From the IMG/VR virus record IMGVR_UViG_3300046747_000117: a stretch of 64,000 nt of DNA. One strand, 5' to 3'. Made by a program: the position numbers and the translations under genes. This DNA comes from a virus. The notes below the pieces were generated by a model. The model ran no database searches. It saw nothing but the letters and a program-made list of their open reading frames with translations, and was not told the DNA's origin. Each line of letters begins with the position of its first letter. The first letter of the stretch is position 1. Shown here one piece after another: positions 7,200 through 46,042 of the stretch.

Positions 7200-8599
7200 T
7201 GTCCGCGTCCCTCAGCCCGGGGCTTAATACCCCGACCATCCCGCCGCCGATCCCCGGCACCGCGCCAGCCACCACGCCGCCCGCGAACGGCCTGATCAAC
7301 AGCGCGCCGGCACCGGACGGCACCAGCGCGCCGGCCACGCCGCCGAACACCGCCCCCGCGGCGGCGCCAGGCGCCACGCCGACGCCGCCGACGCCTCCTC
7401 CGGTCACGCCGCCCGTCACACCGGACCCGAACGCGCCGAACGCGTTCAACGTCACTCCGGATCAGACCGTTTCACATCAGATCGGCAACATCATCGCTTC
7501 CGGCTCGCCGCTCATGCAGCAGGCCGAGGCGAACGCCCGCAACCTCATGCAGCAACGCGGGCTGATCAATTCGTCGCAGGCGATCACCGCCGGGCAGAGC
7601 GCGCTCTACAGCGCGGCCACGCCGATCGCCACCGCCGACGCCGCGACCTACGCCAAGGCGGCGACGGACACCACCACGGCGCAGAACACGGCGAAATTGC
7701 AGGCGCAACAGATCTCCGGCCAGACCAACATCGCCCAGATCCAGACGCAGTCGCAGAAGGACATCGCGAACATCCAGTCCAACACCAGCCTGTCGGTGCA
7801 GGACAAGATCAGTCAGACCAGCCAGCAGATCGCCAAGATCCAGTCCGACACCAGCCTGACGAACCAGGAGAAGCAGGACGCGACCACATTGGCCGCGCAG
7901 AATATTCAGACAAACGCACAATTGGCCCTTGGGCAGTTGAGCGCCAACACGCAACTGACGTTGCAGGACAAGGCTTCGTCAGCGGCGCAGATCCTCGCCA
8001 CGCTGAACAACACGAGCGCGCAGCGGATCGCCCAGATCCAGGCCGACACCAGCCTGTCGGTGACCGACAAGCAAACCGCGTCGGCGCAGATCATCGCGCA
8101 GGGCAACAACGCGACGACGCTGGCCGCGCAGAACCTCGTCAACGCTGGCGCGCTGGCCAACATCGCGGCCAATTCGACCGCGCAACAGCGCATCACGCAG
8201 ATCCAGGAAGACAACAAGCGCGTGCTGCAAAACTCCGCCGGGGCGCAGCAGCTTTACTCCTCCGCGTTGCAGAACATTCAGGCGTTCATGACCAACCCGA
8301 ACCTGAATACCGACCAGCAGGCGACGGCGATGAACAACACCATGGATACCCTCAACGAGGGTCTCAAAATGTTCGGCAACATCGACGCCAACACGAACAT
8401 CAACTCCGTGCTGCGGTTCGGACAGCCGTCCTCAGATGCGAATTCTTCGACGGGGCCACCGTCGAACCTCGGTGATCAGCGGCAGCTTGGCCCGCCGGGT
8501 TCGACCGCGACCCCGGCGTCAGGATCTCCGACGTACAGCACCGGCACTCCGGATAACCCGACCAATACCAACCCAGGCGGCGGGGGCGGTGAAGGTTGA
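7199..8599 (+). CDS. Internal virion / DNA-ejection (pilot-like) protein
   Basis: Pro-rich N-terminus, then Q/T/N/A-rich helical repeats (IAQIQTQSQKD-IANIQSNTSLS). Position typical of podovirus ejection genes. Confidence 0.6.
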   Translation: MSASLSPGLNTPTIPPPIPGTAPATTPPANGLINSAPAPDGTSAPATPPNTAPAAAPGATPTPPTPPPVTPPVTPDPNAPNAFNVTPDQTVSHQIGNIIASGSPLMQQAEANARNLMQQRGLINSSQAITAGQSALYSAATPIATADAATYAKAATDTTTAQNTAKLQAQQISGQTNIAQIQTQSQKDIANIQSNTSLSVQDKISQTSQQIAKIQSDTSLTNQEKQDATTLAAQNIQTNAQLALGQLSANTQLTLQDKASSAAQILATLNNTSAQRIAQIQADTSLSVTDKQTASAQIIAQGNNATTLAAQNLVNAGALANIAANSTAQQRITQIQEDNKRVLQNSAGAQQLYSSALQNIQAFMTNPNLNTDQQATAMNNTMDTLNEGLKMFGNIDANTNINSVLRFGQPSSDANSSTGPPSNLGDQRQLGPPGSTATPASGSPTYSTGTPDNPTNTNPGGGGGEG

Positions 8600-8970
8600 C
8601 GCTCATGGACCGCATCTGGGAGGTCGTCGGGCCAACGATCTACCTCACGCGCGAGCATTACGAACGCTGTTGGCGGGGCTGGACGATCGAGGGTTACGAG
8701 CGCGGCGGCGAACTGGTCGGGGCCACGCTGGTCAACGGGCCAGAGTTTCACTTCGTGCTGTTCAATCCGGACAAGCCGATCACCCTGACCGATGTCCGCC
8801 ACTGCCTCGCCCCGGTCCTCGCGGCCAACGGGCACGTCATCACGCGCACGCCGCACCACGACACGCGACAGCACAGATTCAATCGCCTCGCGGGCTTTCG
8901 TCAGATCGGCGGCGATGAATTCAACGTGATTTACCGGATGGAAGCGGCGGGGTCGCGGTGGCTTCGCTGA
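8596..8970 (+). CDS. Small GNAT-fold-like virion morphogenesis protein
   Basis: 124 aa. EFHFVL...ITRTPHHDTRQHRFNRLAGFRQIG resembles the acetyltransferase-like small protein found next to ejection genes in podoviruses. Confidence 0.45.
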   Translation: MTLMDRIWEVVGPTIYLTREHYERCWRGWTIEGYERGGELVGATLVNGPEFHFVLFNPDKPITLTDVRHCLAPVLAANGHVITRTPHHDTRQHRFNRLAGFRQIGGDEFNVIYRMEAAGSRWLR

Positions 8971-16519: not shown

Positions 16520-19321
16520 ATGCCAGACCTCAACATGGCGACGGTTCGGCAGCAATTCCCGCAGTATAACGACCTGTCGGACGATCAACTCGCGCAGGGA
16601 CTGCACGACAAGTTCTACAAAGACATGCCGTTCGATACGTTCGCGTCGAAGATCGGCTATTCGCAGGCGCCCCCGCCCACGATGGGCGTCGAGGGCATGG
16701 TCGGGTTCCCCACGATCGGCGGGCCGCAAACCCAGATCGGCGCCGACGTGAACGCTCTCGCGCAGGGCGCCGTGGGCGGCACGGGCGGCATCGTCAGCGG
16801 CGTGGGCCGCACGTATCAGGAAGCTGGCCCGCGTATGGCCAGGGCGCAGACGGCGACGATGGACGCCATCGATCGCGGCGAGACCGTCCCCGACCAGCAA
16901 GACCCTATCGGCTACCAGTACCTGTCCCCCGAGCAACGCGCCAAGGCACGCGCGGATCTCGGTGGCGCGAAGGATGAACTGGAGGCACGCGAGCCTAATG
17001 CCCTGATGCGCGCCGGTCGCGCGGTGCAGGGCTTTGGCCAGAGCGCGTTCCCGGTCGACCCGGCGCTGGAGGGGCGGCAGACGGGCATCGCCCGCATGAT
17101 CGGCGGCGCCGGTCCCGTGCTGGCCGCGGGTGCCCTCGGGACCGCCGTGGGTGGACCCGGCGGCGGCATGCTGGCGAGCATGGCGGCGGTCGGCTCGCAG
17201 ACCTACGATGCCACCTACCAGGAAGCGATCGGCAAAGGTCAGACCCCCGAACAGGCAGACGACGCCGCGGGCAAGGCCGCGATGGGCCAGGCGATCATCA
17301 TGACCGTGCCGCTGGCCAGGATCATCCCGCGCGTGCCGATGGATCTACGCGAGGGGTTGGTCAAAACATTGGTGAACCTCGGCCAGAACGGCGTGGAGTT
17401 CAGCGCCGGCAACACGCTGGGCACGGTCGTCAACAACTACGTCGCACAGCAGAGTTTCGACCCGAAGCGCGGCCTGATGGACGGCACCCAGGACGCGGCG
17501 CTGGAGGGATTCGTCGCCGGCCTCGTCATCCCCTCGACGGTCAACGCCGCCCAACGCATCGCGGAGAGCGCGCGGACGGCGCCGCCGCCCATCGCCGACG
17601 TGATCAAGCCGGTTCTCGACGCGCCCGATGTCGAGACAGCCGTCAGGGCAGCGTCGGACGTGGTCAGCGCGGACCCGGCCACCGACGCGCGGGCGTCGGA
17701 TCTCTACCAGCGGGTGAATCAGGCCACGGCGCCCGGCCCGGCCACCGAGGCCAGGGATACGGCGGCGGCGACGGCGGCGACCGCCCAGGCGCGCGAGGTG
17801 GCGGCGGGCAGAGAAGAGCCGCCACCCGTGCCCTACAGGCCCATGACCGCCGCCGAGGTGCAGGCGCGCGACGGCGGCACGATCGAGGAAGCGTTCATAA
17901 CCGCCCGCCGGGAAAACGCCGCGGGCGCGGCCAACCAGCCAGCCATGGTGCCGCCCGGCACCCCGCCACCCCTGCTGCCGCGCATCATGGACCTGTTGCG
18001 CGAGACCGACCGCCAGGAAGCCGAGCGACCGGCCATGGTGCCGCCGACCTCGACCACCGATCCGCTCACCGGGCGGACGACCTCGATCACGCCGCCGCCG
18101 CCAGAACAGACCATGCCGATCCCGGGAACGCGATCGCCGGTCGCGCCGCCGCCTGTCCCCACACCCGACATGACCGGATCAGTCGGCGCCGCCGCCTCGC
18201 GCGAGGGGACACCCGCCGCCGATCTGTTGCCGACCGCATCCGAAGCGGACAGCATCCGCCAGCAAGGCGAGATCGAGCGGCTCGCCACGCCACCCCGCCC
18301 CGGCGACAAAACGGTCTACATCAAAGGCGCCGACCCGACCCTGGCCGAGGTCACGGGCGACCCGGTCGTCGCCATGGAGCAGGCCTATAACCGCCAACAG
18401 CCGGTGGCGAACCCGCACCACGTCGAACGGGAGACCAGAGCCGCTGACGCGATAACAGAGGAGTACGCCAACACGGCGGGCGCGAAGATCACGCTCGATC
18501 GCATGGAAGAGAAGCAGGACCTTCAGGCGCAGGCGGATATCAAAAAGGTATTCGGCGAGCCGGGATCGCAACGGCCCCCGGCGGACCCATCGTCTACCCT
18601 CAGACTGATGGACGACTTTCTGGACGATCCACGGCATGCGGAACGCAATTCCGTCGTCAAGATACTTCAGCCCCTGAGAGACAAGTTTTACGACGCGGAC
18701 GGCAATCTAAAGACCGATCCCTACACGCTCTATGGCATCGGTGAGCATATCAACGACCTGTTGAACGGAGTCGGCGATACTGAAACGGTCGGTTCAGCAC
18801 GCGTGCTGAAACGCGAACTGACGATGATCAAGAACGATCTCTATAACCGCATCGAGGACGTGGCGCCGGGGTTCGCGGAATATCGCGCCAACTACGCCAG
18901 GGCGGCGAGCGAGATCGCCGCGATGCGCTTCCTGCAAGAGAACAGACTGAGGTTGCTAAACGCTAATTTGCGAATAACCCCAGCGAAATGGTTCGGCTTC
19001 ATGCGTGACGTGATCGAGGGGCGAGGCGATCCGATGGACCCGGCTTATGGACTGTCCGAGGCGCAGATGGATCGGTTGTGGAACATAACCGACCATGTGA
19101 AGCGGCAGATGTTCCTTGAGACCGGGAAACCCAGAGGTTCATGGACCTCAATGATGCAGGAAATGGGCGAGCGTTTCGGTGAAGCGGCGGCGCATGCGGT
19201 GGTGGGGCACGCGGTTCCCGTCTTTGGCAATATCGGCGTCAAAATGGGCACGTCGTATCTGCGAAACCGTCGCGCCGAGAAAGAAATGCAGCGATTTCTG
19301 TATCCGGATCTTAGCGAATAA
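16520..19321 (+). CDS. Large internal virion/ejection protein
   Basis: 933 aa. N-terminal QYNDLSDDQLAQGLHDKFYKDMP motif, G/A-rich hydrophobic stretch, last gene of the ejection block. Confidence 0.7.
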   Translation: MPDLNMATVRQQFPQYNDLSDDQLAQGLHDKFYKDMPFDTFASKIGYSQAPPPTMGVEGMVGFPTIGGPQTQIGADVNALAQGAVGGTGGIVSGVGRTYQEAGPRMARAQTATMDAIDRGETVPDQQDPIGYQYLSPEQRAKARADLGGAKDELEAREPNALMRAGRAVQGFGQSAFPVDPALEGRQTGIARMIGGAGPVLAAGALGTAVGGPGGGMLASMAAVGSQTYDATYQEAIGKGQTPEQADDAAGKAAMGQAIIMTVPLARIIPRVPMDLREGLVKTLVNLGQNGVEFSAGNTLGTVVNNYVAQQSFDPKRGLMDGTQDAALEGFVAGLVIPSTVNAAQRIAESARTAPPPIADVIKPVLDAPDVETAVRAASDVVSADPATDARASDLYQRVNQATAPGPATEARDTAAATAATAQAREVAAGREEPPPVPYRPMTAAEVQARDGGTIEEAFITARRENAAGAANQPAMVPPGTPPPLLPRIMDLLRETDRQEAERPAMVPPTSTTDPLTGRTTSITPPPPEQTMPIPGTRSPVAPPPVPTPDMTGSVGAAASREGTPAADLLPTASEADSIRQQGEIERLATPPRPGDKTVYIKGADPTLAEVTGDPVVAMEQAYNRQQPVANPHHVERETRAADAITEEYANTAGAKITLDRMEEKQDLQAQADIKKVFGEPGSQRPPADPSSTLRLMDDFLDDPRHAERNSVVKILQPLRDKFYDADGNLKTDPYTLYGIGEHINDLLNGVGDTETVGSARVLKRELTMIKNDLYNRIEDVAPGFAEYRANYARAASEIAAMRFLQENRLRLLNANLRITPAKWFGFMRDVIEGRGDPMDPAYGLSEAQMDRLWNITDHVKRQMFLETGKPRGSWTSMMQEMGERFGEAAAHAVVGHAVPVFGNIGVKMGTSYLRNRRAEKEMQRFLYPDLSE

Positions 19322-24105: not shown

Positions 24106-24636
24106 ATGGCGGACTTCAGCGAAGCAGCGGAATTCGTACGCCGCTGGGTTGAGAAACAACGCGATGTCATCGCGCTGGGCGAGGCGTTGCAGACCATCGG
24201 GCGCATCGACCACGCCGCGAAGGAACACGAGGAGGCGCGCGATAAACTCGCCATCCAGGTCGCGGCGGCGAAAGAGGAACTTCAGAAAACCACCGACGCG
24301 CACAAGACGTTTCTCGCCACGCGCGCCAAAGACCTGAAGGACCACGAGGCCGCGGCGCGACAGATCCTGGCCGACGCCAAAGCGGCGGGCGGCGAGGCGC
24401 TGGACCAGGCACGCGCGGGCGCGGACGCCACGATCGCCAGCGCGAACGCCGAGGCGGAACGCATGCGCGAGGCGAACGCGCAACGCATGGCGGAACTGGA
24501 ACGGGCGTTCGCGGCGAAAAGCGCGGAACTGAGCGACATGCAACAAACACTGACCGCCGCCCGGCAAGAACACGAAGCCCTGGTCGAGACGATCGCCAAC
24601 ATGCGACGCCTCGCCGGGCGTGTCATGGCGGACTAG
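24106..24636 (+). CDS. Coiled-coil protein
   Basis: 176 aa, A/E/K/R-rich heptads, RBS GAGGA. Confidence 0.65.
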   Translation: MADFSEAAEFVRRWVEKQRDVIALGEALQTIGRIDHAAKEHEEARDKLAIQVAAAKEELQKTTDAHKTFLATRAKDLKDHEAAARQILADAKAAGGEALDQARAGADATIASANAEAERMREANAQRMAELERAFAAKSAELSDMQQTLTAARQEHEALVETIANMRRLAGRVMAD

Positions 24637-24645
24637 GCCGATCGT

Positions 24646-24951
24646 CTGGCTGACACACCGTCAGGCTGGATACGCGCCAACCTCGGCATCGCCGCCACGC
24701 TCCTCGCGCTCGCCGGCACGATCCTCGGCGGGGTCGCCGCGGCCAGCACATGGCTCGCCTCGATGCACCACCTGGAGCGGCGCGTCGACGTGCTGCGTGG
24801 CGAAATAACCACCATGCAGGGCGCAATGGCCACGAACCGGACGACCGTGCAGGACGTGCGCCGCGCGCTGGAGGCCAACGACGCCGCCCACCGCGAGGCC
24901 ATCGCCCGCGCCGAGGAGCGGCTCAAGGCTCTGGAACGAGCCAAACCGTAA
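24646..24951 (+). CDS. Single-TM plus coiled-coil membrane protein (holin-like candidate), probable CTG start
   Basis: Frame of ORF 24763..24951 extends upstream through a TM segment (LGIAATLLALAGTILGGVAAA) to CTG 24646. Confidence 0.5.
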   Translation: MADTPSGWIRANLGIAATLLALAGTILGGVAAASTWLASMHHLERRVDVLRGEITTMQGAMATNRTTVQDVRRALEANDAAHREAIARAEERLKALERAKP

Positions 24952-25023
24952 CGCGGGCGAGGGAGCGCCGCGTCACTGGGCGTGCTAGCCACGCTCGCCA
25001 CCCCAACAAACAGGAGACGCAGC

Positions 25024-25557
25024 ATGCCTTTCGTCAGTGGATTCCTACAGGTGCGCCACGGCGGACACCCGGACCAGGGACTGCCGGGCGAACAGCCGGG
25101 AATCGATAATTCTTTGCCCGGGATGCCCGCCTACCCGGACCAGGGGTTGCCGATGCCGCCGCCTGGCACGTTTCCGCCACCCAGCCCGGCGCATCCGATC
25201 GTCCCCGCGCCACCGTCCACGCCGCCTGGCGTGATCTGGCCACCGATCGGTCGTCCGCCGTCCTGGGGCGGGGGCTGGGGCAGCGGCAACCGGCCCGATC
25301 AGGGACTTCCTGGCAGCCAGCCGGGACCGGACAACACCCTGCCGGGTCAGCCCGCGACCCCGGACAACACGCTGCCGACGCAGCCGCCGCGCCCCGACAA
25401 CTCGTTGCCATCTCAGATGTATTGGGTGGTCTGTGGAATCCCCGGTGTCGGTTGGCGCTATGTGTGCGTCGACCCCTCGCTTCAGCCGGGAATGCCGCTG
25501 CCGCCGACGCCGGTGAACCCCGACAATACGCTGCCGCCGACCGCCGAACCTAAATGA
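25024..25557 (+). CDS. Pro-rich repeat protein (PD[Q/N]xLP repeats)
   Basis: ATG 25024 with RBS CAGGAG. Repeated PDQGLP/PDNTLP/PDNSLP units and a C-terminal YWVVCGIPGVGWRYVCVDP. Confidence 0.7.
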   Translation: MPFVSGFLQVRHGGHPDQGLPGEQPGIDNSLPGMPAYPDQGLPMPPPGTFPPPSPAHPIVPAPPSTPPGVIWPPIGRPPSWGGGWGSGNRPDQGLPGSQPGPDNTLPGQPATPDNTLPTQPPRPDNSLPSQMYWVVCGIPGVGWRYVCVDPSLQPGMPLPPTPVNPDNTLPPTAEPK

Positions 25558-25559
25558 CG

Positions 25560-25592
25560 AAAAGGGCGCGCACCCGACCTGGATGCGCGCCC
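25560..25592 (-). terminator. Intrinsic terminator closing the Cas7-like operon
   Basis: Minus strand GGGCGCGCA-loop-TGCGCGCCC followed by TTTT, immediately after array A. Confidence 0.75.
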
Positions 25593-25830
25593 ACCTCGCC
25601 TCGCCCTACCAAGCCCCGCCACGCCGGACCCCGCCTAGCCCCGCCGCGCCCTACCCCGCCCGGCCCTGCCACGCCTCACCCCGGCAAACCCGACCGCGCC
25701 TCGCCTGACCTGACCACGCCCTGCCTCGCCGCGCCTCGCCTAACCACGGCGGGCCGCGCCAAGCCACACCTTGCCTAACCGGACCGTGCCCCGCCGGGCC
25801 ACACCCCACCTCGGCGCGCCACGCCGAACC
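25591..25830 (-). repeat. Array A: 48 in-phase GGY-NN pentamers (putative guide RNA)
   Basis: Plus strand reads NN-RCC every 5 nt with no indels. 45 of 48 units are GGY and 3 are GCC. Begins 2 nt after the stop of the Cas7-like gene. Confidence 0.95.
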
Positions 25831-25832
25831 TG

Positions 25833-26450
25833 TTACGCCTCGGAAACGCTGTATTTCACGACGCTAAACCGTCCGTAGGTTGGTCGAAAATCGCCAACGC
25901 CGCCGATCCTGCCAGCGAGCGTGACGACCTCGTGCAACTGATCCTGATTGACATATTCCGGTAGCGTCACCAAAAACCTGAAGTCACAGGTCCAGCCGAC
26001 CCGCATCGCCGGGCGGATTCTGTTGATGCCAGCACGCTGAATGACAACGCGGCGCCTGTCCTCGTAATCCCAGTCCTTTGTCCCAAAAGACGCCAGCGGC
26101 GTCAGCGAAACGATCGCCGCCTTGTAGAGATCCATGGCGGACTTTCTTGGAGAGCGCGGATCTTGCCTGAACTTCGAAGCCTGGATGATCGCGCCACGCA
26201 GGTATTCCCCGGGCATGCAGATCATTCCATTTTCGTCGCGATAGACATACGACTCGACATCGTCGGTCTTTTTCGCCGCGCTGTTTTTCGCGGCTTTCCC
26301 TTTGGTCTCAACGCTTTCCGCGTTCCACCGATGGAACAGAACATCGGCTGACCCTCGGATCGAGACATTCGCGACGTACGGCAGCTCAGAGTTGATCGCC
26401 TCTTTGCCGCCATTCGTTACGTTATCTGTTATTCGTACGACCTTCGCCAT
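25833..26450 (-). CDS. Cas7/RAMP-like RNA-binding protein (Vipr-like candidate effector)
   Basis: 205 aa. CMPGEYLRGAI resembles the RAMP IPGSSLKGAL motif. C-terminal Gly-rich loop AGRIGGVGDFRPTYGRF. RBS GGGGGA. Flanked by GGY-NN arrays. Confidence 0.8.
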   Translation of the reverse strand: MAKVVRITDNVTNGGKEAINSELPYVANVSIRGSADVLFHRWNAESVETKGKAAKNSAAKKTDDVESYVYRDENGMICMPGEYLRGAIIQASKFRQDPRSPRKSAMDLYKAAIVSLTPLASFGTKDWDYEDRRRVVIQRAGINRIRPAMRVGWTCDFRFLVTLPEYVNQDQLHEVVTLAGRIGGVGDFRPTYGRFSVVKYSVSEA

Positions 26451-26464
26451 TTATTCCCCCTGTG

Positions 26465-26574
26465 AAACCACGCCCGGCCAGACCCCACCTCGCCTGACCC
26501 CGCCCAGCCTCGCCTTGCCAGACCCAAGCCCGCCCAACCGCGCCGCGCCACGGCCAACCACGCCGCGCCACACC
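26465..26574 (-). repeat. Array B: 22 in-phase GGY-NN pentamers in the leader of the Cas7-like gene
   Basis: 20 of 22 units are GGY (one GCC, one GCT). Ends 14 nt before the ATG. Confidence 0.93.
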
Positions 26575-26579
26575 GCGAG

Positions 26580-26628
26580 AGATAGCCTAGCCGTAATTTT
26601 TTGACCGGGTCAAGGGGCTAGGCTATCT
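26580..26628. promoter_or_regulatory. Inverted-repeat divergent promoter/operator
   Basis: 13-bp perfect inverted repeat AGATAGCCTAGCC...GGCTAGGCTATCT enclosing the palindrome TTGACC-G-GGTCAA. On the minus strand, TTGACC-N18-TAGGCT precedes array B. Confidence 0.65.
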
Positions 26629-26635
26629 TATGGTC

Positions 26636-26839
26636 ATGCCAAGGGTGTTAAAATATCCTGAAAGAGCGCAGTGCAATGTCGTCGCCGGCACGCTCGCGGC
26701 CCTGGAGGCGCGGTTTGAGGCCGGCGACGATCACGCGAAGCTGTTGCGACGCATCGTCAGCAATTGGATACGCGACACCCCGGCGACTAACTCCAAAGAT
26801 CGCCCGCGACGTGGCCCACCGGAATCGTCTTCGCGGTGA
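26636..26839 (+). CDS. Small ribbon-helix-helix-like regulator, divergent from the Cas7-like operon
   Basis: MPRVLKYPERAQCNV...LAALEARF...HAKLLRRIVSNWI has a beta-helix-helix layout. Alternative ATG at 26630. Confidence 0.5.
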   Translation: MPRVLKYPERAQCNVVAGTLAALEARFEAGDDHAKLLRRIVSNWIRDTPATNSKDRPRRGPPESSSR

Positions 26840-27923
26840 TCTCAAAGGTGATCGCCGACAGCGCCGGGGACGACAGCCACACCGAGGGATGCGCCACGCT
26901 GTAAGCGGTGAAATCGGTCAGCATCAGGGTATGATACTGATCGATCGTCAAAACCGGAGGTGGCGGTGGGGGAGGCGGTGTGGCTGGCGGCGGGGGCGTG
27001 GGCGCTGGCGGTGGCGGCGTGGCTGGCGTGGGTGGCGTTCCGCCCAGGAAGCCGATCGGCGCCAGATCCAGCACCGGGCGCGCGACCACCGTGCCCCCCA
27101 ACGGATTCGCCAGGCCGAACACCGAATTGCCCGCGAACGATGTCAGTCCAACGCCCGTTGGATTGAGGATGCCGACGCCACCGGAACGATCGTTGACGAT
27201 CGTGTTGCCGGTCATCGACACGTTGTTGGACGGGTAGGCCAGGCCCTCCTCGCCATACGCGATGATGTTCTGGTTCGGACTGTTCGGCCCTTGCTCTATC
27301 GCATTATCAGCCAGATTGAGATTGCCACCATTAGGAATATCAACAGTATAACTCGCGTCAGAATTGCCATCAAAAAGTCGATTATTCGTGATCGTATTGT
27401 TGGCCGCACGGGACTTTACCTCGTGACCCTGATTGGCGTCATGGATGTAGCTGTTCGTGAGCGTGAAACTGGCGACCATGCCGATATAAATATCGTGCGT
27501 TCCACCCGAACCTCCCACGCCATTGAACGCGAACTCGGAACGATCGATCGTGATCGAGCCGTTCGGATCGGGCGCGCCGAGGATGCCGTCCTGATTGCCG
27601 TGAAAATACACGTCGTTCAGGGTCAGGTTGCCAGACTCGTAGCGCACGGCTGCGCCGTTGGCGTCGGGCACCGTTACGCCAGAGATATCGAACCCCGAGA
27701 TCGTTACGTTGCCGCCCTCATCGATCATCGCCTTGCCGTTCGGCGGCTGGATCGTTTCGGTCATCACGGCGAACCCGCCGACCGCCATGAGCGTGATGTC
27801 CTTGAACACCGACAGGAACTGGTTGACGTAAGATCCCGCCGCGACCTGGACGGTATCGCCTGGCTGCGCGCGGTCGATCGCCGCCTGGATGTCGCCACCC
27901 GCCTGCACCGTCAGTATCGCCAT
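26787..27923 (-). CDS. Right-handed parallel beta-helix (pectin-lyase-like) protein
   Basis: IQAAIDRAQPGDTVQVAAGSY...NGKA...GAAVRYESG...HDIYIG...GHEVKSRA. Pro-rich linker near the C-terminus. Confidence 0.8.
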   Translation of the reverse strand: MAILTVQAGGDIQAAIDRAQPGDTVQVAAGSYVNQFLSVFKDITLMAVGGFAVMTETIQPPNGKAMIDEGGNVTISGFDISGVTVPDANGAAVRYESGNLTLNDVYFHGNQDGILGAPDPNGSITIDRSEFAFNGVGGSGGTHDIYIGMVASFTLTNSYIHDANQGHEVKSRAANNTITNNRLFDGNSDASYTVDIPNGGNLNLADNAIEQGPNSPNQNIIAYGEEGLAYPSNNVSMTGNTIVNDRSGGVGILNPTGVGLTSFAGNSVFGLANPLGGTVVARPVLDLAPIGFLGGTPPTPATPPPPAPTPPPPATPPPPPPPPVLTIDQYHTLMLTDFTAYSVAHPSVWLSSPALSAITFEITAKTIPVGHVAGDLWS

Positions 27924-28171
27924 GGTCCGATTCCCCGTGGTTGCCCGCGGAGTCTAGCGCATTTCCGGGCGCGTCATGCCCGTGTCATTGGACATTCATG
28001 CTGCGGCGCAACATAATGCGCCATGAGACACATTATTGCAGCCGCGATATTGGCAGGAATCCTCACGAATTGCGCCCCCCCCGCACCGAGCCAGGGCTGG
28101 GGGGGCGCCTTCCCGGGTAACCCGATCGCCGTCTCGGTCTGGTCCCCGGCGGTTGAGTCAGCGGGCGACGG

Positions 28172-28870
28172 TCAGGGACCGTAACGCCGCCGACGACGGA
28201 CGACGGCGAGACCGGCCAGGCCCGTTCCCAAAACAGCCAAGGTCATGGGTTCCGGCGTGTCCACGATGACCGGATTGATCACGCAGTCCGGACAGGTCGT
28301 GTTCACCGGGATTTCCTCGGAGACCAGCGAGTAGTTGTTCTGGCTCCCGACCCAGTCGATCTTCAGCGCGGTGGTGTAGTTCGCCCATGATCCCGACGTG
28401 AGCGTGGCTTCAAAACCGATGACGATCGGACCTGACAACAACCCGACCGGCGTCGGCGGGATCAGCGTGTTGTCGAAGCAGTAGAACCCACCCGATCCGT
28501 CGCAGCCGCTCGACGCCAGCCCGCCGGGGACGAAGTTGAACCCGTTGGCGCCCAGGGTCGTCACGCCGTTAACGCGAACACCGACGACCTGACCGCTGGA
28601 GGGGTTGTTTTTGGACACCGTGTTAAACGCGATGGCGTTGATCCCGGTGCGCCCGCCGCGCGTGTCGGCGATCGAGTTCTCGCCCGCGATGACCAGCGCG
28701 AACTGTTCGGTGAGCGGATCGGCGGTGGCCTGGGCTTCCAGCGTGTAGACCAGGCCCTCGGTGGCGGCGTCAGGCCCCAGCGTGATCAGCGCGGCATGGG
28801 CCGGGGCCGAACACAGCGCGCCCGCGACGACGCCGATCGCCGCCGCGGTCGCGAGGAGGTAAGCCCTCAC
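28172..28870 (-). CDS. PEP-CTERM sorting-domain protein
   Basis: Signal peptide MRAYLLATAAAIG...PAHA and C-terminus TPEPMTLAVLGTGLAGLAVVRRRRR. Confidence 0.9.
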   Translation of the reverse strand: MRAYLLATAAAIGVVAGALCSAPAHAALITLGPDAATEGLVYTLEAQATADPLTEQFALVIAGENSIADTRGGRTGINAIAFNTVSKNNPSSGQVVGVRVNGVTTLGANGFNFVPGGLASSGCDGSGGFYCFDNTLIPPTPVGLLSGPIVIGFEATLTSGSWANYTTALKIDWVGSQNNYSLVSEEIPVNTTCPDCVINPVIVDTPEPMTLAVLGTGLAGLAVVRRRRRYGP

Positions 28871-29538
28871 GCCGGGAGACCCGCATGCGTATCTTTACGT
28901 ACCCGACGCCGGGCGACAGCGCCCAGGCCGATGAGGCCCACGCCCAGTAGCGCCAGCGAGGCCGGTTCCGGGGCGGCGGTGGTGGACGACGCCACGCCGC
29001 TGTAGGACGCCGAGAAACTCGCCAAGGTCGCGTTGTCCAGGGCGAGCGCGGGCGCCAGGTTGGACAATGACAACGTGAAGGTGTTCGGCGCGGCGAGATC
29101 CGCCGCCGCGATCACGCTGGACGTGAGCGAGAGGGTATCAGGCGGGTTGGCGACGTTGATGGACAATTGTTCGCCGGTCGCCAAACCAAACGCCGCGTCG
29201 GAAAACGTTCCGGAAAGGAAATTAGTTCCGGCGCCGCCTGCCAACGACGTGATGGCGAACGTCCCGCTGTAGTGCTGCAACAGCGCGGGACCGATGCCTT
29301 GCGCGGCGTCGATCGATGTCGCGTTGAGGTCGAGGAAGCCGGTGGTCGGCGCGTTGCCGAACAGTTGCGTGATCGAAATGGCGGAGTCGGTGGAGAGCGT
29401 GGTGGCCGTGCCCGCGCCGTTCGCGACCGCCGTCAGCGTGTTGGTGTCGGAAACCTGGCCGAACGCGATTATTTGTGTCGCATTCGCACTGACAGACAGG
29501 CCCAGGACGGCGACCGTGGCGAGGAGGAGGTTTCGCAT
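28867..29538 (-). CDS. PEP-CTERM sorting-domain protein
   Basis: Probable ATG 29538 (RBS AGGGG). Signal peptide MRNLLLATVAVLGLSVSANA and C-terminus APEPASLALLGVGLIGLGAVARRR. Confidence 0.9.
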   Translation of the reverse strand: MRNLLLATVAVLGLSVSANATQIIAFGQVSDTNTLTAVANGAGTATTLSTDSAISITQLFGNAPTTGFLDLNATSIDAAQGIGPALLQHYSGTFAITSLAGGAGTNFLSGTFSDAAFGLATGEQLSINVANPPDTLSLTSSVIAAADLAAPNTFTLSLSNLAPALALDNATLASFSASYSGVASSTTAAPEPASLALLGVGLIGLGAVARRRVRKDTHAGLPA

Positions 29539-29656
29539 GATGGTTCCCCTTGTATGTTTGGGGGAGTTTAATGCGCTGGCGGTGATCCGTCTCGCGAAAA
29601 CGTCACGTTGCAAAAACAGTGGGTTATGCCGCGAAACACCGAAACGACCGACATAG

Positions 29657-29674
29657 TGTAAAGCGCGCTTTACA
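29657..29674. promoter_or_regulatory. 18-bp perfect palindrome (operator candidate)
   Basis: TGTAAAGCGCGCTTTACA lies between the divergent PEP-CTERM and array C units. Confidence 0.55.
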
Positions 29675-29679
29675 TCGAT

Positions 29680-29720
29680 TTTCGCTGGAACGGCGGGCAG
29701 GAGCGGGCTAGGCTAGCCAT
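29680..29720 (+). promoter_or_regulatory. Promoter of array C
   Basis: TTTCGCTGGAAC-N17-TAGGCTAGCCAT, duplicated with identical spacing before array D. Confidence 0.7.
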
Positions 29721-30006
29721 TCACGGCGCGGCGCGGTGTGGCTTGGCGTGGCATGGCATGGCTTGGCGTGGCTGGGCGTGGCTTGGTTGGCCCGGGTCAG
29801 GCTTGGCGTGATTGGGCTTGCCGGGGCGTGGTGGGGCGAGGCCCGGCGTGGCAGGGCTTGCCATGGCCAGGCTGGGCAGGGCGGGCCGGGGCGGGGCGTG
29901 GCCGGGTTCGGCGAGGCATGGCAGGGCGGGGCCTGGTCAGGCTTGGTATGGTATGGGAGGCGTTTACGCCTCGGTCCCGTCCGGCTTCCCGCCGGGCGGG
30001 GCCATA
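29721..30006 (+). ncRNA. Stand-alone guide-like RNA C: 46 GGY-NN units (29725-29954) plus 3' double hairpin
   Basis: 41 of 46 units are GGY, in phase. Tail GAGGC-N6-GCCTC then GGTCCCGTCCGG-N7-CCGGGCGGGGCC. Confidence 0.75.
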
Positions 30007-30140
30007 AGCGCGGCTATCGCCATCCTCAACTCTTGGTTATGTCGTTTGAGGTCCGCGGCCACGCGTTCCAGGTCCGCGATCCTCGCCCGCAGCGACTCGA
30101 TGGAGTCCTCCGATGATGCCTGATCAAACACCGCAACCAT
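29964..30140 (-). CDS. Small coiled-coil protein overlapping the array C tail antisense
   Basis: Translated by hand: MVAVFDQASSEDSIESLRARIADLERVAADLKRHNQELRMAIAALMAPPGGKPDGTEA. Confidence 0.4.
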   Translation of the reverse strand: MVAVFDQASSEDSIESLRARIADLERVAADLKRHNQELRMAIAALMAPPGGKPDGTEA

Positions 30141-30274
30141 CCGCCCCTATAGTCACGGGCGAAGAGATAGCGAAATTCCTGGAGATTTACCGCATCCTCG
30201 CGCGGCCTGACGGGCCTGCGGAGCCGGTGGGCAAGGTCGAGACGTGGCTTGAGGCGTTGTCGCGCAGATGAACC

Positions 30275-30448
30275 TCATCGTCTCGCTTCTGCTTCGCTGA
30301 CTAGCCGGGCGAGCGTTTCCTCGAGCGCGTCAAGTTCGTCGCTGGCGGCGCGGAGGTCGTCCAGCCTCAGCATCAGCGTGACATAGGAGCTGTTCGGGAT
30401 GGAGGTGACGCGGGAGTCGAAGAGGCGGTGCAGGGCGACGATTTTCAT
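30275..30448 (-). CDS. Small hypothetical protein
   Basis: ATG 30448, MKIVALHRLFDS...EAEARR (57 aa), divergent from the array D promoter. Confidence 0.45.
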   Translation of the reverse strand: MKIVALHRLFDSRVTSIPNSSYVTLMLRLDDLRAASDELDALEETLARLVSEAEARR

Positions 30449-30458
30449 TGGCGACAAC

Positions 30459-30499
30459 TTTCGCTGGAGCGTTGGTCGGGTACCGGCTAGGCTAGCCAT
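30459..30499 (+). promoter_or_regulatory. Promoter of array D
   Basis: TTTCGCTGGAGC-N17-TAGGCTAGCCAT. Confidence 0.7.
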
Positions 30500-30705
30500 C
30501 CCGGCGCGGCCAGGCGGGGCATGGCGCGGCTTGGCGTGGTTGGGCTTGGCGGGGCATGGCGGGGCGGGGCCTGGCAGGGTCTGGCGCGGCGTGGCTTGGT
30601 TGGGCTTGCCCTGGCGTGGTTGGGCGCGGTTCGGCGTGGCTTGGCAAGGTATGGTGAGGCTCTCGTGCCTCGGCCCCGTCTGGCTTCCCCCCGGACGGGG
30701 CCATA
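30500..30705 (+). ncRNA. Stand-alone guide-like RNA D: 31 GGY-NN units (30503-30657) plus 3' double hairpin
   Basis: 30 of 31 units are GGY. Tail GAGGC-N6-GCCTC then GGCCCCGTCTGG-N7-CCGGACGGGGCC. Confidence 0.75.
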
Positions 30706-30708
30706 GCG

Positions 30709-30801
30709 TCAAAACACGGAATCCAACCATAGCCTGGCGATCGCCAAGCCCGCGAGCCACACCACGCCGCACAGGAGCGCCAGGGCAAGGGCGGTCCTCA
30801 A
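30709..30801 (-). CDS. 30-aa membrane peptide
   Basis: TTG start overlapping the upstream stop (TTGA). MRTALALALLCGVVWLAGLAIARLWLDSVF. Confidence 0.4.
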   Translation of the reverse strand: MRTALALALLCGVVWLAGLAIARLWLDSVF

Positions 30802-31061
30802 AGCCGGGTCAGCCCCTCGCGCGCCACCGCCTCGGCGGTCAGGCGGGCGTCCTCGACCAGGCCATCGAGGCACTCGGTCATGCGTTTGAGGTCGTCAGCG
30901 CGCCACGACAGCACCTCCCGGATCGCCTCGAAATCGCTCCGGACGAGCGCGACCAGGTCGGCGGCGTCGGGGTGGCAGGCCTCGATCAGCCGCAGCGTGC
31001 CGAGGCCGGCGGCGAGCCTGCCCTCGATCAGGCGGGCCTCGTAGTCCTGGGCGGTTTTCAT
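30798..31061 (-). CDS. Hypothetical early protein
   Basis: 87 aa with ATGA coupling in the leftward operon. Confidence 0.6.
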   Translation of the reverse strand: MKTAQDYEARLIEGRLAAGLGTLRLIEACHPDAADLVALVRSDFEAIREVLSWRADDLKRMTECLDGLVEDARLTAEAVAREGLTRL

Positions 31062-31348
31062 ACGCCGAATCCTCGCCTGGTCAGGTCATCTTCGTCCAGC
31101 GCCATGTCGGCGCGGACCTGGGCGGCGCAGGCGGCGCAATAGTGTTCCGTCTCGCCGGTCGGAAAGGTCACCGCCTCGGTGGCCGGGTCGTCGCAGCCGA
31201 TCCAGTCGCAGTAAATCCGCCGCTCGCCGACGCCGCCGCACGTCTCGCAGGCGATGTACCAGGTGTCGGGGTCGTTGCCGCCGTGGCGGCTCGTCAGCAC
31301 GGTGCCCTCGCCGTCGCACTCCGGGCATGTCAGGTCGAGCGCCATCAC
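31058..31348 (-). CDS. Zn-finger protein (CxxCxGxG repeats)
   Basis: CPECDGEG, CETCGGVG, CDWIGC and CAAC motifs. Confidence 0.65.
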   Translation of the reverse strand: MMALDLTCPECDGEGTVLTSRHGGNDPDTWYIACETCGGVGERRIYCDWIGCDDPATEAVTFPTGETEHYCAACAAQVRADMALDEDDLTRRGFGV

Positions 31349-31698
31349 GCGTCCTCCTCATCAGGGTCCAGGGGTTTGTCGTCCACGAGGCCGCGGATCA
31401 GCGCGATCACGTTTTCCAGTTGCTCGACCTTCGCCCGCAACGCTTCGATCTCAGAGCCGTGTCGGCGCTCGTAGTCGGCGTCGATGACGCGGTAGGAGAT
31501 CGTGAGGTAATGCTCGCGGCCACGGTCGAGGTAGGCCGGGTCGATCAGCGTGAAGCGGATGCCTTCGTCGCGAATGTCGGGACCCAGGACCCGGTCCAGG
31601 CCGTTGAAATAGTCCTGCGAGCGCGCCCCGGAGCGGGACGCGAAGCCTTGTTGATGAAAGGTGATTTTGTAGCCTTCGTCGCTGTAATGGCTGGACAT
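31345..31698 (-). CDS. Hypothetical protein with C-terminal coiled coil
   Basis: ATG 31698 coupled to the upstream stop. MSSHYSDEGYK...EIEALRAKVEQLE. Confidence 0.6.
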   Translation of the reverse strand: MSSHYSDEGYKITFHQQGFASRSGARSQDYFNGLDRVLGPDIRDEGIRFTLIDPAYLDRGREHYLTISYRVIDADYERRHGSEIEALRAKVEQLENVIALIRGLVDDKPLDPDEEDA

Positions 31699-44937: not shown

Positions 44938-45279
44938 ATGCCGTTCGACGGATTCCCCCCCGGGCTACTCTCGGATCTCGCCGCCCTGAAGGTCGCCCTG
45001 GCCGGCGTCAGGACCGGCTGGCGGACTGGCGCCCTCGGCATCGAGGGCAAACACTGCGCGCTGGGCTGGCTGCTGCACGCCGCCGATGGCAACGCGAAGA
45101 TCGCCACCCGCCTCGCCGTCGACTACGTCTGGCCCGCGCTGCCCGAGAGCGCTCGCAAGGGCAAGGACACCCGGATCGAGGCGATCTACCGCTACAACGA
45201 CCACTGGGGCCACGCGAACACGATCAAGGTGTTCGACCGCGCCGTCGAACTGGCCGAGGCGAAGGCTGGCGGTGTCTGA
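44938..45279 (+). CDS. Hypothetical protein
   Basis: 113 aa, RBS CAGGAGG. Confidence 0.65.
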   Translation: MPFDGFPPGLLSDLAALKVALAGVRTGWRTGALGIEGKHCALGWLLHAADGNAKIATRLAVDYVWPALPESARKGKDTRIEAIYRYNDHWGHANTIKVFDRAVELAEAKAGGV

Positions 45280-46042
45280 CATCGAGGACGCGCTGATCTG
45301 GCGCCTCGATGTGCGCCAGGCCGCGCGTCAGCTCAAACCGCGCGAGCGGGGCATGCTCACCCGCTTCGTCCGGGGGGACACCGCCACTGACATCGCCCGC
45401 GCTGACGGCCTGAGCCGGGAGAGGGTCGGCCAGATCCTCGCCACCGCCGGCCACCGCCTGCGCCACGCCCTGCGCTCGCCGCCGGGCTTCGACCGCCCGG
45501 CCTTCCTGGATCACATGGCCCGCCTGCTCGAGGCCCGACGCATCCAGCGCGAGCAAGAGGCGCAATGGGAAGCCGCCCGCGAGGCGCGCGAACGCGAAGC
45601 CGAACGCTACTCCGAGGAACGCCGGTTCCAGCGCGACCTCGACGCGATGCGCGCCCTGATCGAGCGCGAGGGGCCAGCGAAATGGATCGTGCCCGCGGAG
45701 GCGGAAATCGAGGTCGACGCCATGCTGGCCTTCGCCTCGGCCCTGGCGTCGAAACCGCCCCCCCCCAAGCCCAAGCCGCCCGAGTGGCTGCGCCTGCTCT
45801 ACATCCCCGAATCGGATCGCGCCGACCAACAGAAGCGCAGTCTCGCGCTTCTTCTTGAGCAGGAATTCATCCGCCGCGGCGCCGGCCCGCTCATCCCCAC
45901 CAATCCCGACGCCGCCGAGCAACTCGCCAGTCTCAGTCCCGAAGATCGCGCGATGGCGAAATACAACTGGTACGCGGTCAACCTCGACGCCATGTTCAGT
46001 AAGTTCCCCCCCTACCCGGGCAAGGTCTACTTCGATCCTTGA
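45272..46042 (+). CDS. Sigma70 region-4 HTH plus coiled-coil regulator
   Basis: GTG 45272. LKPRERGML......TATDIARADGLSRERVGQI...A..RLR. Confidence 0.7.
   Translation: MSDIEDALIWRLDVRQAARQLKPRERGMLTRFVRGDTATDIARADGLSRERVGQILATAGHRLRHALRSPPGFDRPAFLDHMARLLEARRIQREQEAQWEAAREAREREAERYSEERRFQRDLDAMRALIEREGPAKWIVPAEAEIEVDAMLAFASALASKPPPPKPKPPEWLRLLYIPESDRADQQKRSLALLLEQEFIRRGAGPLIPTNPDAAEQLASLSPEDRAMAKYNWYAVNLDAMFSKFPPYPGKVYFDP

What the first reader, a model, noticed from the sequence alone, without database searches (positions are those of the whole stretch)
25833..26450. Orphan Cas7/RAMP-like protein with no other cas genes
Motifs seen: N-terminal strand NVSIRGSADVLFH, YRDENGMICMPGEYLRGAI (compare the RAMP consensus P.IPGSSLKG.L), RIRPA..GWTCDF, and a C-terminal Gly loop AGRIGGVGDFRPTYGRF (compare the RAMP G-rich loop). 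No Cas1/2/3/5/6/8/10 or nuclease partner is present in the window, so I infer a nuclease-free binder or repressor rather than a cutter.
Basis: partly seen in the sequence, partly recalled or inferred. Interest (0 to 1): 0.88.

Follow-up and report, generated by a model that had tools for sequence, protein, structure and literature searches.

The report
Phage VIPR system: Vipr plus guide arrays

Summary
The ORF at 25833-26450 (-) is real and all quoted motifs are present. A confident AF2 model (pLDDT 92.8) matches only Cas7-type RAMPs in the PDB. A family profile hits the solved "SUSP1 Vipr protein" (36pp, E 3e-17). The top AlphaFold-DB hits are the five founding Vipr accessions of the VIPR discovery preprint (bioRxiv 10.64898/2026.04.26.720920).

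The residues that read the GGY motif in SUSP1 Vipr are conserved. Four GGYNN arrays (48, 22, 46 and 32 units, perfect 5-nt register) flank the gene or lie 3-4 kb away. 80 of 84 related phage loci carry such arrays beside vipr. GGY is fixed and NN is near-random.

No cas genes, CRISPR array or accessory (vap) gene was found. The window is a tailed soil phage.

Best reading: a nuclease-free, RNA-guided DNA-binding silencer used in conflicts between phages.

Differences from the published type II systems:
- uninterrupted arrays much longer than 9-16 units;
- arrays embedded in the vipr mRNA leader and trailer;
- two stand-alone arrays with a shared upstream motif and a covarying two-hairpin tail;
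- one 19-unit segment whose code mimics a GGYNN array under the 1-nt-skip rule.

No natural target was identified and no RNA data exist. Verdict: new member of a known kind.

The parts
25833..26450 (-). vipr gene: 205-aa Vipr protein with a RAMP fold (RRM core, thumb hairpin about residues 129-149, G-loop 184-194)
   Evidence: ORF and motifs. Profile against PDB 36pp SUSP1 Vipr, E 3e-17. AF2 pLDDT 92.8. Cas7 fold hits. AFDB top hits are the founding Vipr accessions. GGY-contact residues H40, R146, D187, F188 and R189 are conserved.
26465..26574 (-). Array T2: 22 GGYNN units forming the 5' leader of the vipr transcript. It ends 14 nt before the start codon, just upstream of the ribosome-binding site.
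   Evidence: Register scan score 19, against at most 5 in shuffles. Identical in all nine loci fetched through the identical Vipr protein or its 98%-identical relative P0008 except L093/L094. Followed by CACAGGGGGAATAAATG.
25591..25830 (-). Array T1: 48 GGYNN units starting 2 nt after the vipr stop codon (the 3' trailer)
   Evidence: Scan score 43.5. Strain variants differ by an exact 3-unit, in-register indel.
25611..25705 (-). Units 25-43 of T1: the 'array-mimic' segment. Its NN string follows the series NN, GY, NG, YN, GG expected for a guide against a GGYNN array under the 1-nt-skip rule.
   Evidence: Run of 19 units. Other skip rules and the antisense reading give 6 or fewer. The maximum in 2,000 unit-order shuffles was 12. 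Unique among 129 arrays.
25564..25592 (-). Intrinsic terminator hairpin (12 bp, 10 G-C pairs, then TTTT) abutting the last unit of T1. It is the likely 3' cap of the vipr/T1 transcript.
   Evidence: Terminator scan. Conserved, with loop variation, in L002 and L093.
26581..26629 (.). Palindromic control region with two mirrored GGCTAGGCTA motifs around TTGACCnGGTCAA. Inferred divergent promoters/operator for T2-vipr-T1 (-) and for a 69-aa ORF at 26630-26839 (+).
   Evidence: Sequence. Motif statistics: six matches to the motif (four sites), and 0 of 100 shuffles reach that count. The + strand promoter-like site is at 26601-26629. Promoter function is inferred, not shown.
29706..29954 (+). Array T3: the GGCTAGGCTA motif (29706-29715), then 46 GGYNN units (29725-29954). 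A stand-alone vrRNA gene.
   Evidence: Conserved in close strains.
29957..30003 (+). 3' tail of T3: hairpin GAGGC-N6-GCCTC followed by a 12-bp hairpin
   Evidence: RNAalifold consensus on 7 sequences. Two pairs switch G-C to A-U in 3 of 7 sequences.
30485..30662 (+). Array T4: the GGCTAGGCTA motif (30485-30494), then 32 GGYNN units (30503-30662). The first 7 units are conserved and the rest is a strain-specific cassette.
   Evidence: Three different cassettes occur among phages with an identical Vipr.
30656..30702 (+). 3' tail of T4: the same two-hairpin element, overlapping the last two units

Best explanation
This is a phage-borne VIPR (Viral Interference Programmable Repeat) system.

The 205-aa protein is a Vipr, a minimal single-RRM RAMP related to Cas7. 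By homology with SUSP1 Vipr, one protomer binds each GGYNN pentamer of a vrRNA. The GGY bases are flipped out and held by the beta-sheet His (H40), the thumb Arg (R146) and the G-loop Asp-aromatic-Arg (D187, F188, R189). The NN dinucleotides stay exposed. The resulting helical filament pairs these NN bases with double-stranded DNA while skipping every third target base, and it blocks transcription without cutting.

In this phage the guides lie in four arrays. T2 is the leader and T1 the trailer of the vipr mRNA, which ends at a terminator. T3 and T4 are stand-alone RNA genes on the other strand, each with a shared upstream motif and a two-hairpin 3' tail.

The likely role is silencing of competing phages, prophages or satellites in the host cell.

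Shown here: protein homology, fold, conserved contact residues, array anatomy, and array conservation and hypervariability. Inferred from the homologue: filament formation, DNA binding and silencing. Inferred from sequence only: the promoters, co-transcription and the biological targets.
For: Protein:
- phmmer to 36pp 'SUSP1 Vipr protein', E 5e-7; the family profile gives E 3e-17 over residues 5-190 of 202.
- AF2 pLDDT 92.8.
- Foldseek PDB top 50 are all Cas7-type RAMPs. The VIA wide search gives Z 10-11.8 for Cmr4 and Csm3.
- AFDB cluster hits ranked 1-4 and 6 are X1U2U4 (E 3e-17, TM 0.76/0.86), A0A661D0E2, A0A0F9A1L0, A0A1F4YLN4 and A0A2D6XG06. These are exactly the founding Vipr accessions in the paper's methods.
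- Contact residues: SUSP1 R138 and D177, whose mutation abolishes silencing, correspond to R146 (59/60 conserved) and D187 (54/60). R179 corresponds to R189 (58/60), H17 to H40 (47/60), and W178 to F188 (F or Y in 46/60).

RNA:
- Four arrays of 48, 22, 46 and 32 units in perfect 5-nt register score 19-43.5, against at most 5 in shuffles.
- 80 of 84 related loci have same-strand arrays next to vipr. NN composition is near-uniform.
- Phages with an identical Vipr differ by in-register unit indels and cassette swaps.
- The 3' tails are structured and covary. A terminator abuts T1.

Context: a tailed phage with no cas or defence hits.
Against: - There is no expression, processing, binding or silencing data for this locus. 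No RNA run holds it.
- The arrays are uninterrupted for 22-48 units, and up to 146 units in a relative. Published vrRNAs have 9-16 units plus a tail, so individual guide boundaries are unknown.
- No vap accessory gene was found.
- No natural target was found in the phage itself, in 94 related loci or in exact-pattern scans of public collections.
- Sequence identity to the characterised SUSP1 Vipr is low. The 1-nt-skip rule is therefore extrapolated, with only indirect support.
Confidence: 0.9

Rival explanations
1. Same protein family, different use of the long tracts. The very long uninterrupted GGYNN tracts would not mainly serve as DNA-targeting guides. They would act as sponges or decoys that titrate Vipr, either the phage's own (autoregulation through the mRNA leader next to the ribosome-binding site) or a rival phage's.
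For: Tract lengths of 22-48 units here, and up to 146 uninterrupted units in L002 or 238 summed units in L053, far exceed the published 9-16 units. T2 ends 14 nt before the start codon. No targets were found. The third preprint shows that vrRNAs can be used to redirect another element's Vipr.
Against: NN positions are hypervariable and are swapped as cassettes between otherwise identical phages. That is expected for guides in an arms race and not for a simple sponge, which needs only GGY. T3 and T4 have the guide-plus-tail layout of published vrRNAs.
Confidence: 0.07
2. A stray Cas7 (Csm3/Cmr4-like) subunit left over from, or borrowed from, a CRISPR-Cas system. It might be used as an anti-CRISPR decoy, and the GC-rich pentamer tracts would be unrelated simple repeats.
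For: The best solved-structure matches by fold are Csm3 and Cmr4. Phages are known to carry CRISPR-derived parts (general knowledge).
Against: Sequence and structure place the protein with the Vipr founders and SUSP1 Vipr, not with any Cas7 family. There are no Pfam, NCBIfam or PADLOC Cas hits. The arrays are tied to the gene in 80 of 84 loci on the same strand. No CRISPR repeat is present.
Confidence: 0.02
3. An ordinary phage protein, either structural or a helix-turn-helix regulator as annotated in phage DSL-LC04, with no RNA partner.
For: The GenBank homologue in DSL-LC04 is labelled 'helix-turn-helix transcriptional regulator'. One AFDB hit carries an 'HK97 gp10' label.
Against: No HTH or structural family is detected. 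The fold is an RRM-type RAMP with a G-loop. These labels are automatic and unsupported.
Confidence: 0.01

Closest known systems
Type II VIPR system of Escherichia phage SUSP1 (Vipr, PDB 36pp; bioRxiv 10.64898/2026.04.26.720920, .720927 and 2026.10.15.759431)
   Same: Homologous Vipr protein (profile E 3e-17) of the same size, about 200 aa. The GGY-contact residues are conserved. GGYNN tandem-repeat RNAs lie upstream and downstream of vipr on its strand. NN is hypervariable. The system is phage-encoded with no nuclease. Stand-alone arrays end in a structured 3' tail.
   Different: Sequence identity is low. No vap1-like gene sits in an operon with vipr. Arrays are uninterrupted for 22-48 units instead of 9-16 units each capped by a pseudoknot tail. 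The tail here is two plain hairpins, or a terminator. Two arrays are separate genes on the opposite strand, 3-4 kb away. The host is a high-GC soil bacterium, not an enterobacterium.
X1U2U4 and the other founding Vipr proteins from AlphaFold DB (the PSI-BLAST seed of the VIPR catalogue)
   Same: Best structural match (E 3e-17, TM 0.76/0.86, 28% identity). Stand-alone RAMP outside any CRISPR context.
   Different: X1U2U4 is only a predicted structure from a marine-sediment metagenome fragment. I could not see its locus or its type assignment.
Cas7-family backbone subunits of class 1 CRISPR effectors (Csm3, Cmr4, type VII Cas7, Csf2)
   Same: RRM core, thumb hairpin and glycine-rich loop. One protomer per fixed RNA step. 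Bases are flipped at regular intervals. A helical filament forms on a guide RNA.
   Different: Binding step of 5 nt, not 6. Three guide bases and one target base are displaced per step. There is no CRISPR array, Cas6, Cas5, large subunit or adaptation genes. The guide code is non-contiguous. No Cas family HMM is matched.

Membership tests
VIPR system (Vipr + vrRNA) | Vipr protein homologous to characterised or founding Vipr proteins | tested here: met
   Profile against PDB 36pp SUSP1 Vipr, E 3e-17, near full length. AFDB top hits are the five founding accessions.
VIPR system (Vipr + vrRNA) | Minimal RAMP fold: single RRM core, thumb and G-loop | tested here: met
   AF2 pLDDT 92.8, with beta1 - helical insert - alpha1 - thumb hairpin - alpha2 - G-loop - beta4. 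Cas7 fold matches.
VIPR system (Vipr + vrRNA) | Residues that read G1, G2 and Y3 of the GGY motif (SUSP1 H17, R138, D177, W178, R179) | tested here: met
   They align to H40, R146, D187, F188 and R189. They are conserved in 47, 59, 54, 46 (F or Y) and 58 of 60 relatives.
VIPR system (Vipr + vrRNA) | Tandem YNNGG/GGYNN repeats (at least 4 units) in the intergenic DNA flanking vipr, on its strand | tested here: met
   T2 (22 units) and T1 (48 units) flank the gene. They score 19 and 43.5, against at most 5 in shuffles. The same holds in 80 of 84 related loci.
VIPR system (Vipr + vrRNA) | GGY conserved while NN is hypervariable | tested here: met
   NN composition is near-uniform over 4,657 units. 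Cassette swaps and in-register indels occur between phages with an identical Vipr.
VIPR system (Vipr + vrRNA) | Repeat tract capped by a conserved, structured 3' tail | tested here: met
   T3 and T4 have a two-hairpin tail with 2 compensatory pairs. T1 ends in a terminator hairpin. T2 has no tail, since it runs into the vipr ribosome-binding site.
VIPR system (Vipr + vrRNA) | vrRNA of 9-16 repeats (under 100 nt), as in the characterised type II systems | tested here: not met
   Uninterrupted tracts of 22-48 units here, and 146 in L002. The paper does describe other array architectures, namely staggered and ribozyme-interspersed, so this is a feature of type II and not of the family. No hammerhead ribozyme was found here.
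VIPR system (Vipr + vrRNA) | Accessory vap gene next to vipr (typical, not universal) | tested here: not met
   No neighbouring gene is conserved across 85 loci. The small divergent ORF 26630-26839 has no family and no similarity to the ORF in the same position in L003.
VIPR system (Vipr + vrRNA) | Viral or proviral location | tested here: met
   Large terminase, portal, major head protein and tail genes in the window. Relatives lie on contigs of roughly 40-65 kb, and 80 loci come from the viral-contig collection.
VIPR system (Vipr + vrRNA) | vrRNA expression, RNP formation, 1-nt-skip dsDNA recognition and transcriptional silencing | not testable with these tools
   No RNA runs hold the locus. 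The only indirect support for the 1-nt-skip rule is the array-mimic segment.
CRISPR-Cas class 1 effector (Cas7 subunit) | CRISPR repeat-spacer array and partner cas genes (Cas5, Cas6, large subunit, Cas1/2) | tested here: not met
   No CRISPR-like repeats. No cas hits in PADLOC, Pfam or NCBIfam for the protein or for about 30 large ORFs.
CRISPR-Cas class 1 effector (Cas7 subunit) | Match to a Cas7/Csm3/Cmr4 sequence family model | tested here: not met
   Zero Pfam, NCBIfam and PADLOC families at E<=1. The resemblance is at the fold level only.

The most novel reading that the evidence does not exclude
This soil-phage clade may be a distinct VIPR architecture that the published types do not cover. 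It has no vap gene. Guides are written as uninterrupted tracts of 22 to over 140 pentamers inside the vipr mRNA leader and trailer, and also occur as stand-alone genes with their own promoter motif and two-hairpin tail. These tracts would either act as very long filaments or be cut by an unknown mechanism. It also carries a 19-unit guide whose code spells a GGYNN array, which would make it an anti-VIPR guide aimed at a rival phage's array DNA.
Probability: 0.3. Interest if true: 0.6.

Novelty: new member of a known kind. Interest (0 to 1): 0.45.

Why it matters
VIPR is a newly described (2026) RNA-guided DNA-recognition system, proposed to predate CRISPR and attractive as a very small programmable repressor. 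This window shows that a divergent Vipr clade is very abundant in soil and rhizosphere phages: about 7,500 protein clusters at 90% identity.

It offers natural variation that could inform three questions. What sets guide length and how are guides processed? Is an accessory protein needed? Does the 1-nt-skip code hold far from the E. coli model? The array-mimic guide is an in-silico hint that it does.

The case also shows that a tool-free reading of raw sequence arrived at the correct mechanism class.

Tried and rejected
- **Direct family searches.** Pfam, NCBIfam and PADLOC on the protein gave no hits. PHROGs gave only a family of unknown function.
- **Ribozymes.** An Rfam scan of 24500-31500 for hammerhead or other ribozymes between guides found nothing relevant.
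- **vap search.** Clustering ORFs within +/-3 kb of vipr in 85 loci gave only spurious frames over vipr or the repeats, plus replication genes specific to subclades. A Lys-rich ORF of about 134-147 aa overlaps the vipr stop in 10 loci but is absent here. The 69-aa divergent ORF has no family and no similarity to the ORF in that position in L003.
- **Local target prediction with the 1-nt-skip rule.** An apparent excess over skip 0 and skip 2 turned out to be hits inside other arrays. With arrays masked there was no excess over unit-order shuffles in 0.9 Mb, so there is no self-target and no local target.
- **Public target scans.** Seven exact (NNx)9-10 patterns were scanned: five against viral contigs, one against genomes and one against metagenomes. 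They gave 0-2 hits each, and none extended beyond chance.
- **Target of the array-mimic guide.** The best match among 3,892 array positions was 14/24 informative positions, which is chance level. Two exact scans found nothing.
- **GCC units as regular punctuation.** G2-to-C is the commonest deviation (266 of 689 off-consensus units), but spacing across 129 arrays falls off smoothly with no preferred interval. I rejected this as a general rule. The 13-unit spacing in T1 stands alone.
- **Things that could not be run.** No whole genome is held. The alignment-based locus search failed and was replaced by a single-protein search. No RNA runs hold the locus. The supplementary tables that would give the VIPR type are not held.

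Full report
**Observation.** It is a genuine, widespread gene:
- 7,489 homologues at E<=1e-3 in the 90%-clustered protein collection, none with an informative name (most unnamed, the rest 'hypothetical protein'), many on contigs of 40-125 kb;
- 1,171 representatives in the 50%-clustered library;
- a match to phrog_4652, function unknown.

Pfam, NCBIfam and PADLOC give nothing.

**Fold and family.** I built a 60-sequence alignment (A1). AlphaFold2 gave a confident model, with mean pLDDT 92.8 and pTM 0.85. Its topology is beta1, a helical insert, alpha1, a long beta-hairpin (residues 129-149), alpha2, a glycine-rich loop and beta4.
- The top 50 Foldseek hits in the PDB are all Cas7-type RAMPs: Csm3, Cmr4, type VII Cas7 and Cas7-11.
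- An independent alignment to 48,161 representative chains ranks Cmr4 and Csm3 first, at Z 10-11.8.
- By sequence, the protein hits one solved entry, 36pp 'SUSP1 Vipr protein' (E 5e-7). The family profile raises this to E 3e-17 over residues 5-190 of 202.
- In the AlphaFold-DB clusters, hits 1-4 and 6 are X1U2U4 (E 3e-17, TM 0.76/0.86), A0A661D0E2, A0A0F9A1L0, A0A1F4YLN4 and A0A2D6XG06.

These five accessions are exactly those named as the founding Vipr proteins in the methods of the discovery preprint.

**What is known.** Three 2026 preprints describe VIPR (Viral Interference Programmable Repeat) systems.
- Vipr is a minimal RAMP, mostly phage-encoded. It binds vrRNAs made of 9-16 YNNGG repeats plus a structured 3' tail.
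- The NN dinucleotides specify a dsDNA target in which every third base is skipped. Binding silences transcription without cleavage.
- Seven types are defined. Accessory vap genes are typical, and array architectures vary.
- Cryo-EM shows one protomer per repeat in a right-handed filament. G1 is read by H17 and D177, G2 by R138 and W178, and Y3 by E71/M72 and R179. The D177A and R138A mutants are dead.
- The third preprint shows anti-satellite function, solo vrRNAs, and vrRNAs that target rival vrRNA loci.

**Contact residues.** In the HMMER alignments, the SUSP1 residues map to the window protein as follows:

| SUSP1 | Window | Conserved in A1 |
|---|---|---|
| H17 | H40 | 47/60 |
| E71 | E82 | 24/60 |
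| R138 | R146 | 59/60 |
| D177 | D187 | 54/60 |
| W178 | F188 | 46/60 (F or Y) |
| R179 | R189 | 58/60 |

**The RNA partner.** A register-aware scan of both strands of the window finds exactly four GGYNN tracts:

| Array | Coordinates | Units |
|---|---|---|
| T1 | 25591-25830 (-) | 48 |
| T2 | 26465-26574 (-) | 22 |
| T3 | 29725-29954 (+) | 46 |
| T4 | 30503-30662 (+) | 32 |

None contains a single indel. They score 19-43.5, against at most 5 in first-order Markov simulations of the window that keep its dinucleotide frequencies.
- T2 ends 14 nt before the vipr start codon, just upstream of the ribosome-binding site.
- T1 begins 2 nt after the stop codon and abuts a strong terminator hairpin at 25592-25564.
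- T3 and T4 lie 3-4 kb away on the other strand. A beta-helix gene and two PEP-CTERM genes lie between them and vipr.

**Comparative evidence.** I examined 84 related loci: 80 from the viral-contig collection, phage DSL-LC04, and three metagenomic contigs.
- 80 of the 84 carry same-strand GGYNN tracts directly next to vipr: 47 upstream and 64 downstream, with up to 238 summed units. Two of the four exceptions have vipr at a contig end.
- Over 4,657 units, positions 4 and 5 are near-uniform in composition.
- Among eight loci fetched through the identical Vipr protein, T2 is invariant in all eight. T1 is present in all eight and differs by an exact 3-unit indel. T4, present in the four loci that reach it, keeps its first 7 units and then carries three unrelated cassettes. 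Loci with a 98%-identical Vipr have entirely different arrays.

This is the pattern expected of fast-evolving guides under a strict register constraint.

**Transcription-unit anatomy (inferred).** The 10-mer GGCTAGGCTA occurs at only four sites in the window. Three lie 8-9 nt upstream of the first unit of T2, T3 and T4. The fourth is a mirrored copy facing a 69-aa ORF. No shuffle out of 100 reached that count.

T3 and T4 each end in the same element, a 5-bp hairpin followed by a 12-bp hairpin. In the 12-bp stem, two pairs change G-C to A-U in 3 of 7 sequences.

Other subclades have short arrays alternating with repeated tails of about 50 nt, as in the published type II layout. Array architecture therefore varies within this protein clade.

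**Context.** The window is a tailed phage. It encodes a large terminase, an SU10-type portal, a major head protein, tail spikes, an ERF recombinase, a helicase and a D5 primase. There are no cas or defence hits. It occurs in soil and rhizosphere metagenomes from 24 studies.

**Differences from the characterised systems.**
- The uninterrupted arrays are two to ten times longer than 9-16 units.
- No vap gene was found.
- No ribozymes are present.
- Off-consensus units are mainly G2-to-C (266 of 689), but their spacing has no preferred interval. They are tolerated deviations and not regular punctuation.

**Targets.** After masking the arrays, 1-nt-skip decoding gives no excess of matches over unit-order shuffles in the phage or the related loci. 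Exact-pattern scans of the public collections gave nothing that extends beyond chance.

One observation stands out. Units 25-43 of T1 (25611-25705) carry NN dinucleotides that all fit the series NN, GY, NG, YN, GG. That is the series a GGYNN array yields when read with one skipped base.
- The run is 19 units long. Other skip rules and the antisense reading give 6 or fewer.
- In 2,000 unit-order shuffles the maximum was 12.
- It is unique among 129 arrays.
- The three 5-unit blocks differ only at the free positions.

This suggests a guide aimed at array DNA, like the 'vrRNA-targeting vrRNAs' of the third preprint. It also indirectly supports the 1-nt-skip rule in this clade. A diverged 25-nt tandem duplication is an alternative origin. 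The matching target array was not found.

**Limits.**
- No whole genome is held.
- No RNA data exist.
- The type tables of the paper are not available.

**Verdict.** The thing is a VIPR system, a kind first described in 2026. I file it as a new member of a known kind, with some architectural peculiarities worth testing.

Noticed in passing
window 25611-25705 (-), units 25-43 of array T1: The NN string follows the 5-unit super-period NN, GY, NG, YN, GG for 19 units. Under the 1-nt-skip rule it therefore spells a GGYNN array, which may make it an anti-array (anti-VIPR) guide. It is unique among 129 arrays. The matching target array was not found.
   Followed up: yes
window 26581-26629, 29706-29718, 30485-30497: The motif GGCTAGGCTA occurs only upstream of arrays T2, T3 and T4 (8-9 nt before the first unit), and once mirrored toward a 69-aa ORF (26630-26839 +) that has no detectable family. 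At 26581-26629 it forms a 13-bp inverted repeat around TTGACCnGGTCAA, which looks like a divergent promoter/operator.
   Followed up: partly
window 25786-25810 (-), units 4-9 of T1: The NN series GG GT CC GG AC CC is its own reverse complement, so the decoded target would be a palindromic, operator-like DNA site. By my rough estimate the chance of this occurring somewhere in the arrays is about 3%.
   Followed up: no
window 26787-29613 (-): A beta-helix protein (378 aa) and two tandem PEP-CTERM proteins (232 and 248 aa) sit between the vipr unit and the stand-alone arrays. They are conserved in the close relatives L002, L085-L087 and L093. This is unusual phage cargo and hints at an exosortase-bearing Gram-negative host.
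   Followed up: partly
L001 (phage DSL-LC04, OR003939.1) 8001-8618: The GenBank homologue (60% identical) is annotated 'helix-turn-helix transcriptional regulator'. It is a Vipr with 31 GGYNN units upstream. In this subclade (10 loci) a Lys-rich ORF of about 134-147 aa overlaps the vipr stop and could be a vap-like partner.
   Followed up: partly
L075 4442-4874, L076 3080-3512, L017 3975-5666, L034/L035/L039/L043, L026/L053: Relatives show other array architectures. Short arrays alternate with repeated conserved tails of about 50 nt: GGGCCTTATTGC... in L075/76, a GGGGAGGC-GAAA-GCCTCCCC hairpin in L017, a CTGATCGGCG...GACATATGAGCGG element in L034/35 that may be a ribozyme, and a long hairpin in L026/L053.
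   Followed up: no
window 16520-19321 (+): A 933-aa protein gives a weak hit to a virion RNA polymerase family (phrog_2206, E 1e-7). A sigma-70 region-4 protein lies at 45086-46042. The array promoters may therefore be phage-specific and not sigma-70 type.
   Followed up: no
window 25554-25778 (+), 29736-30116 (+), 30399-31142 (+), 30275-30772 (-): The long open frames over the arrays are translations of the pentamer repeats (PRLAPP..., GVAWRGLAWLG...). Gene callers do call such frames in relatives, for example the 249-aa 'gene' after vipr in L002. They are almost certainly spurious.
   Followed up: partly
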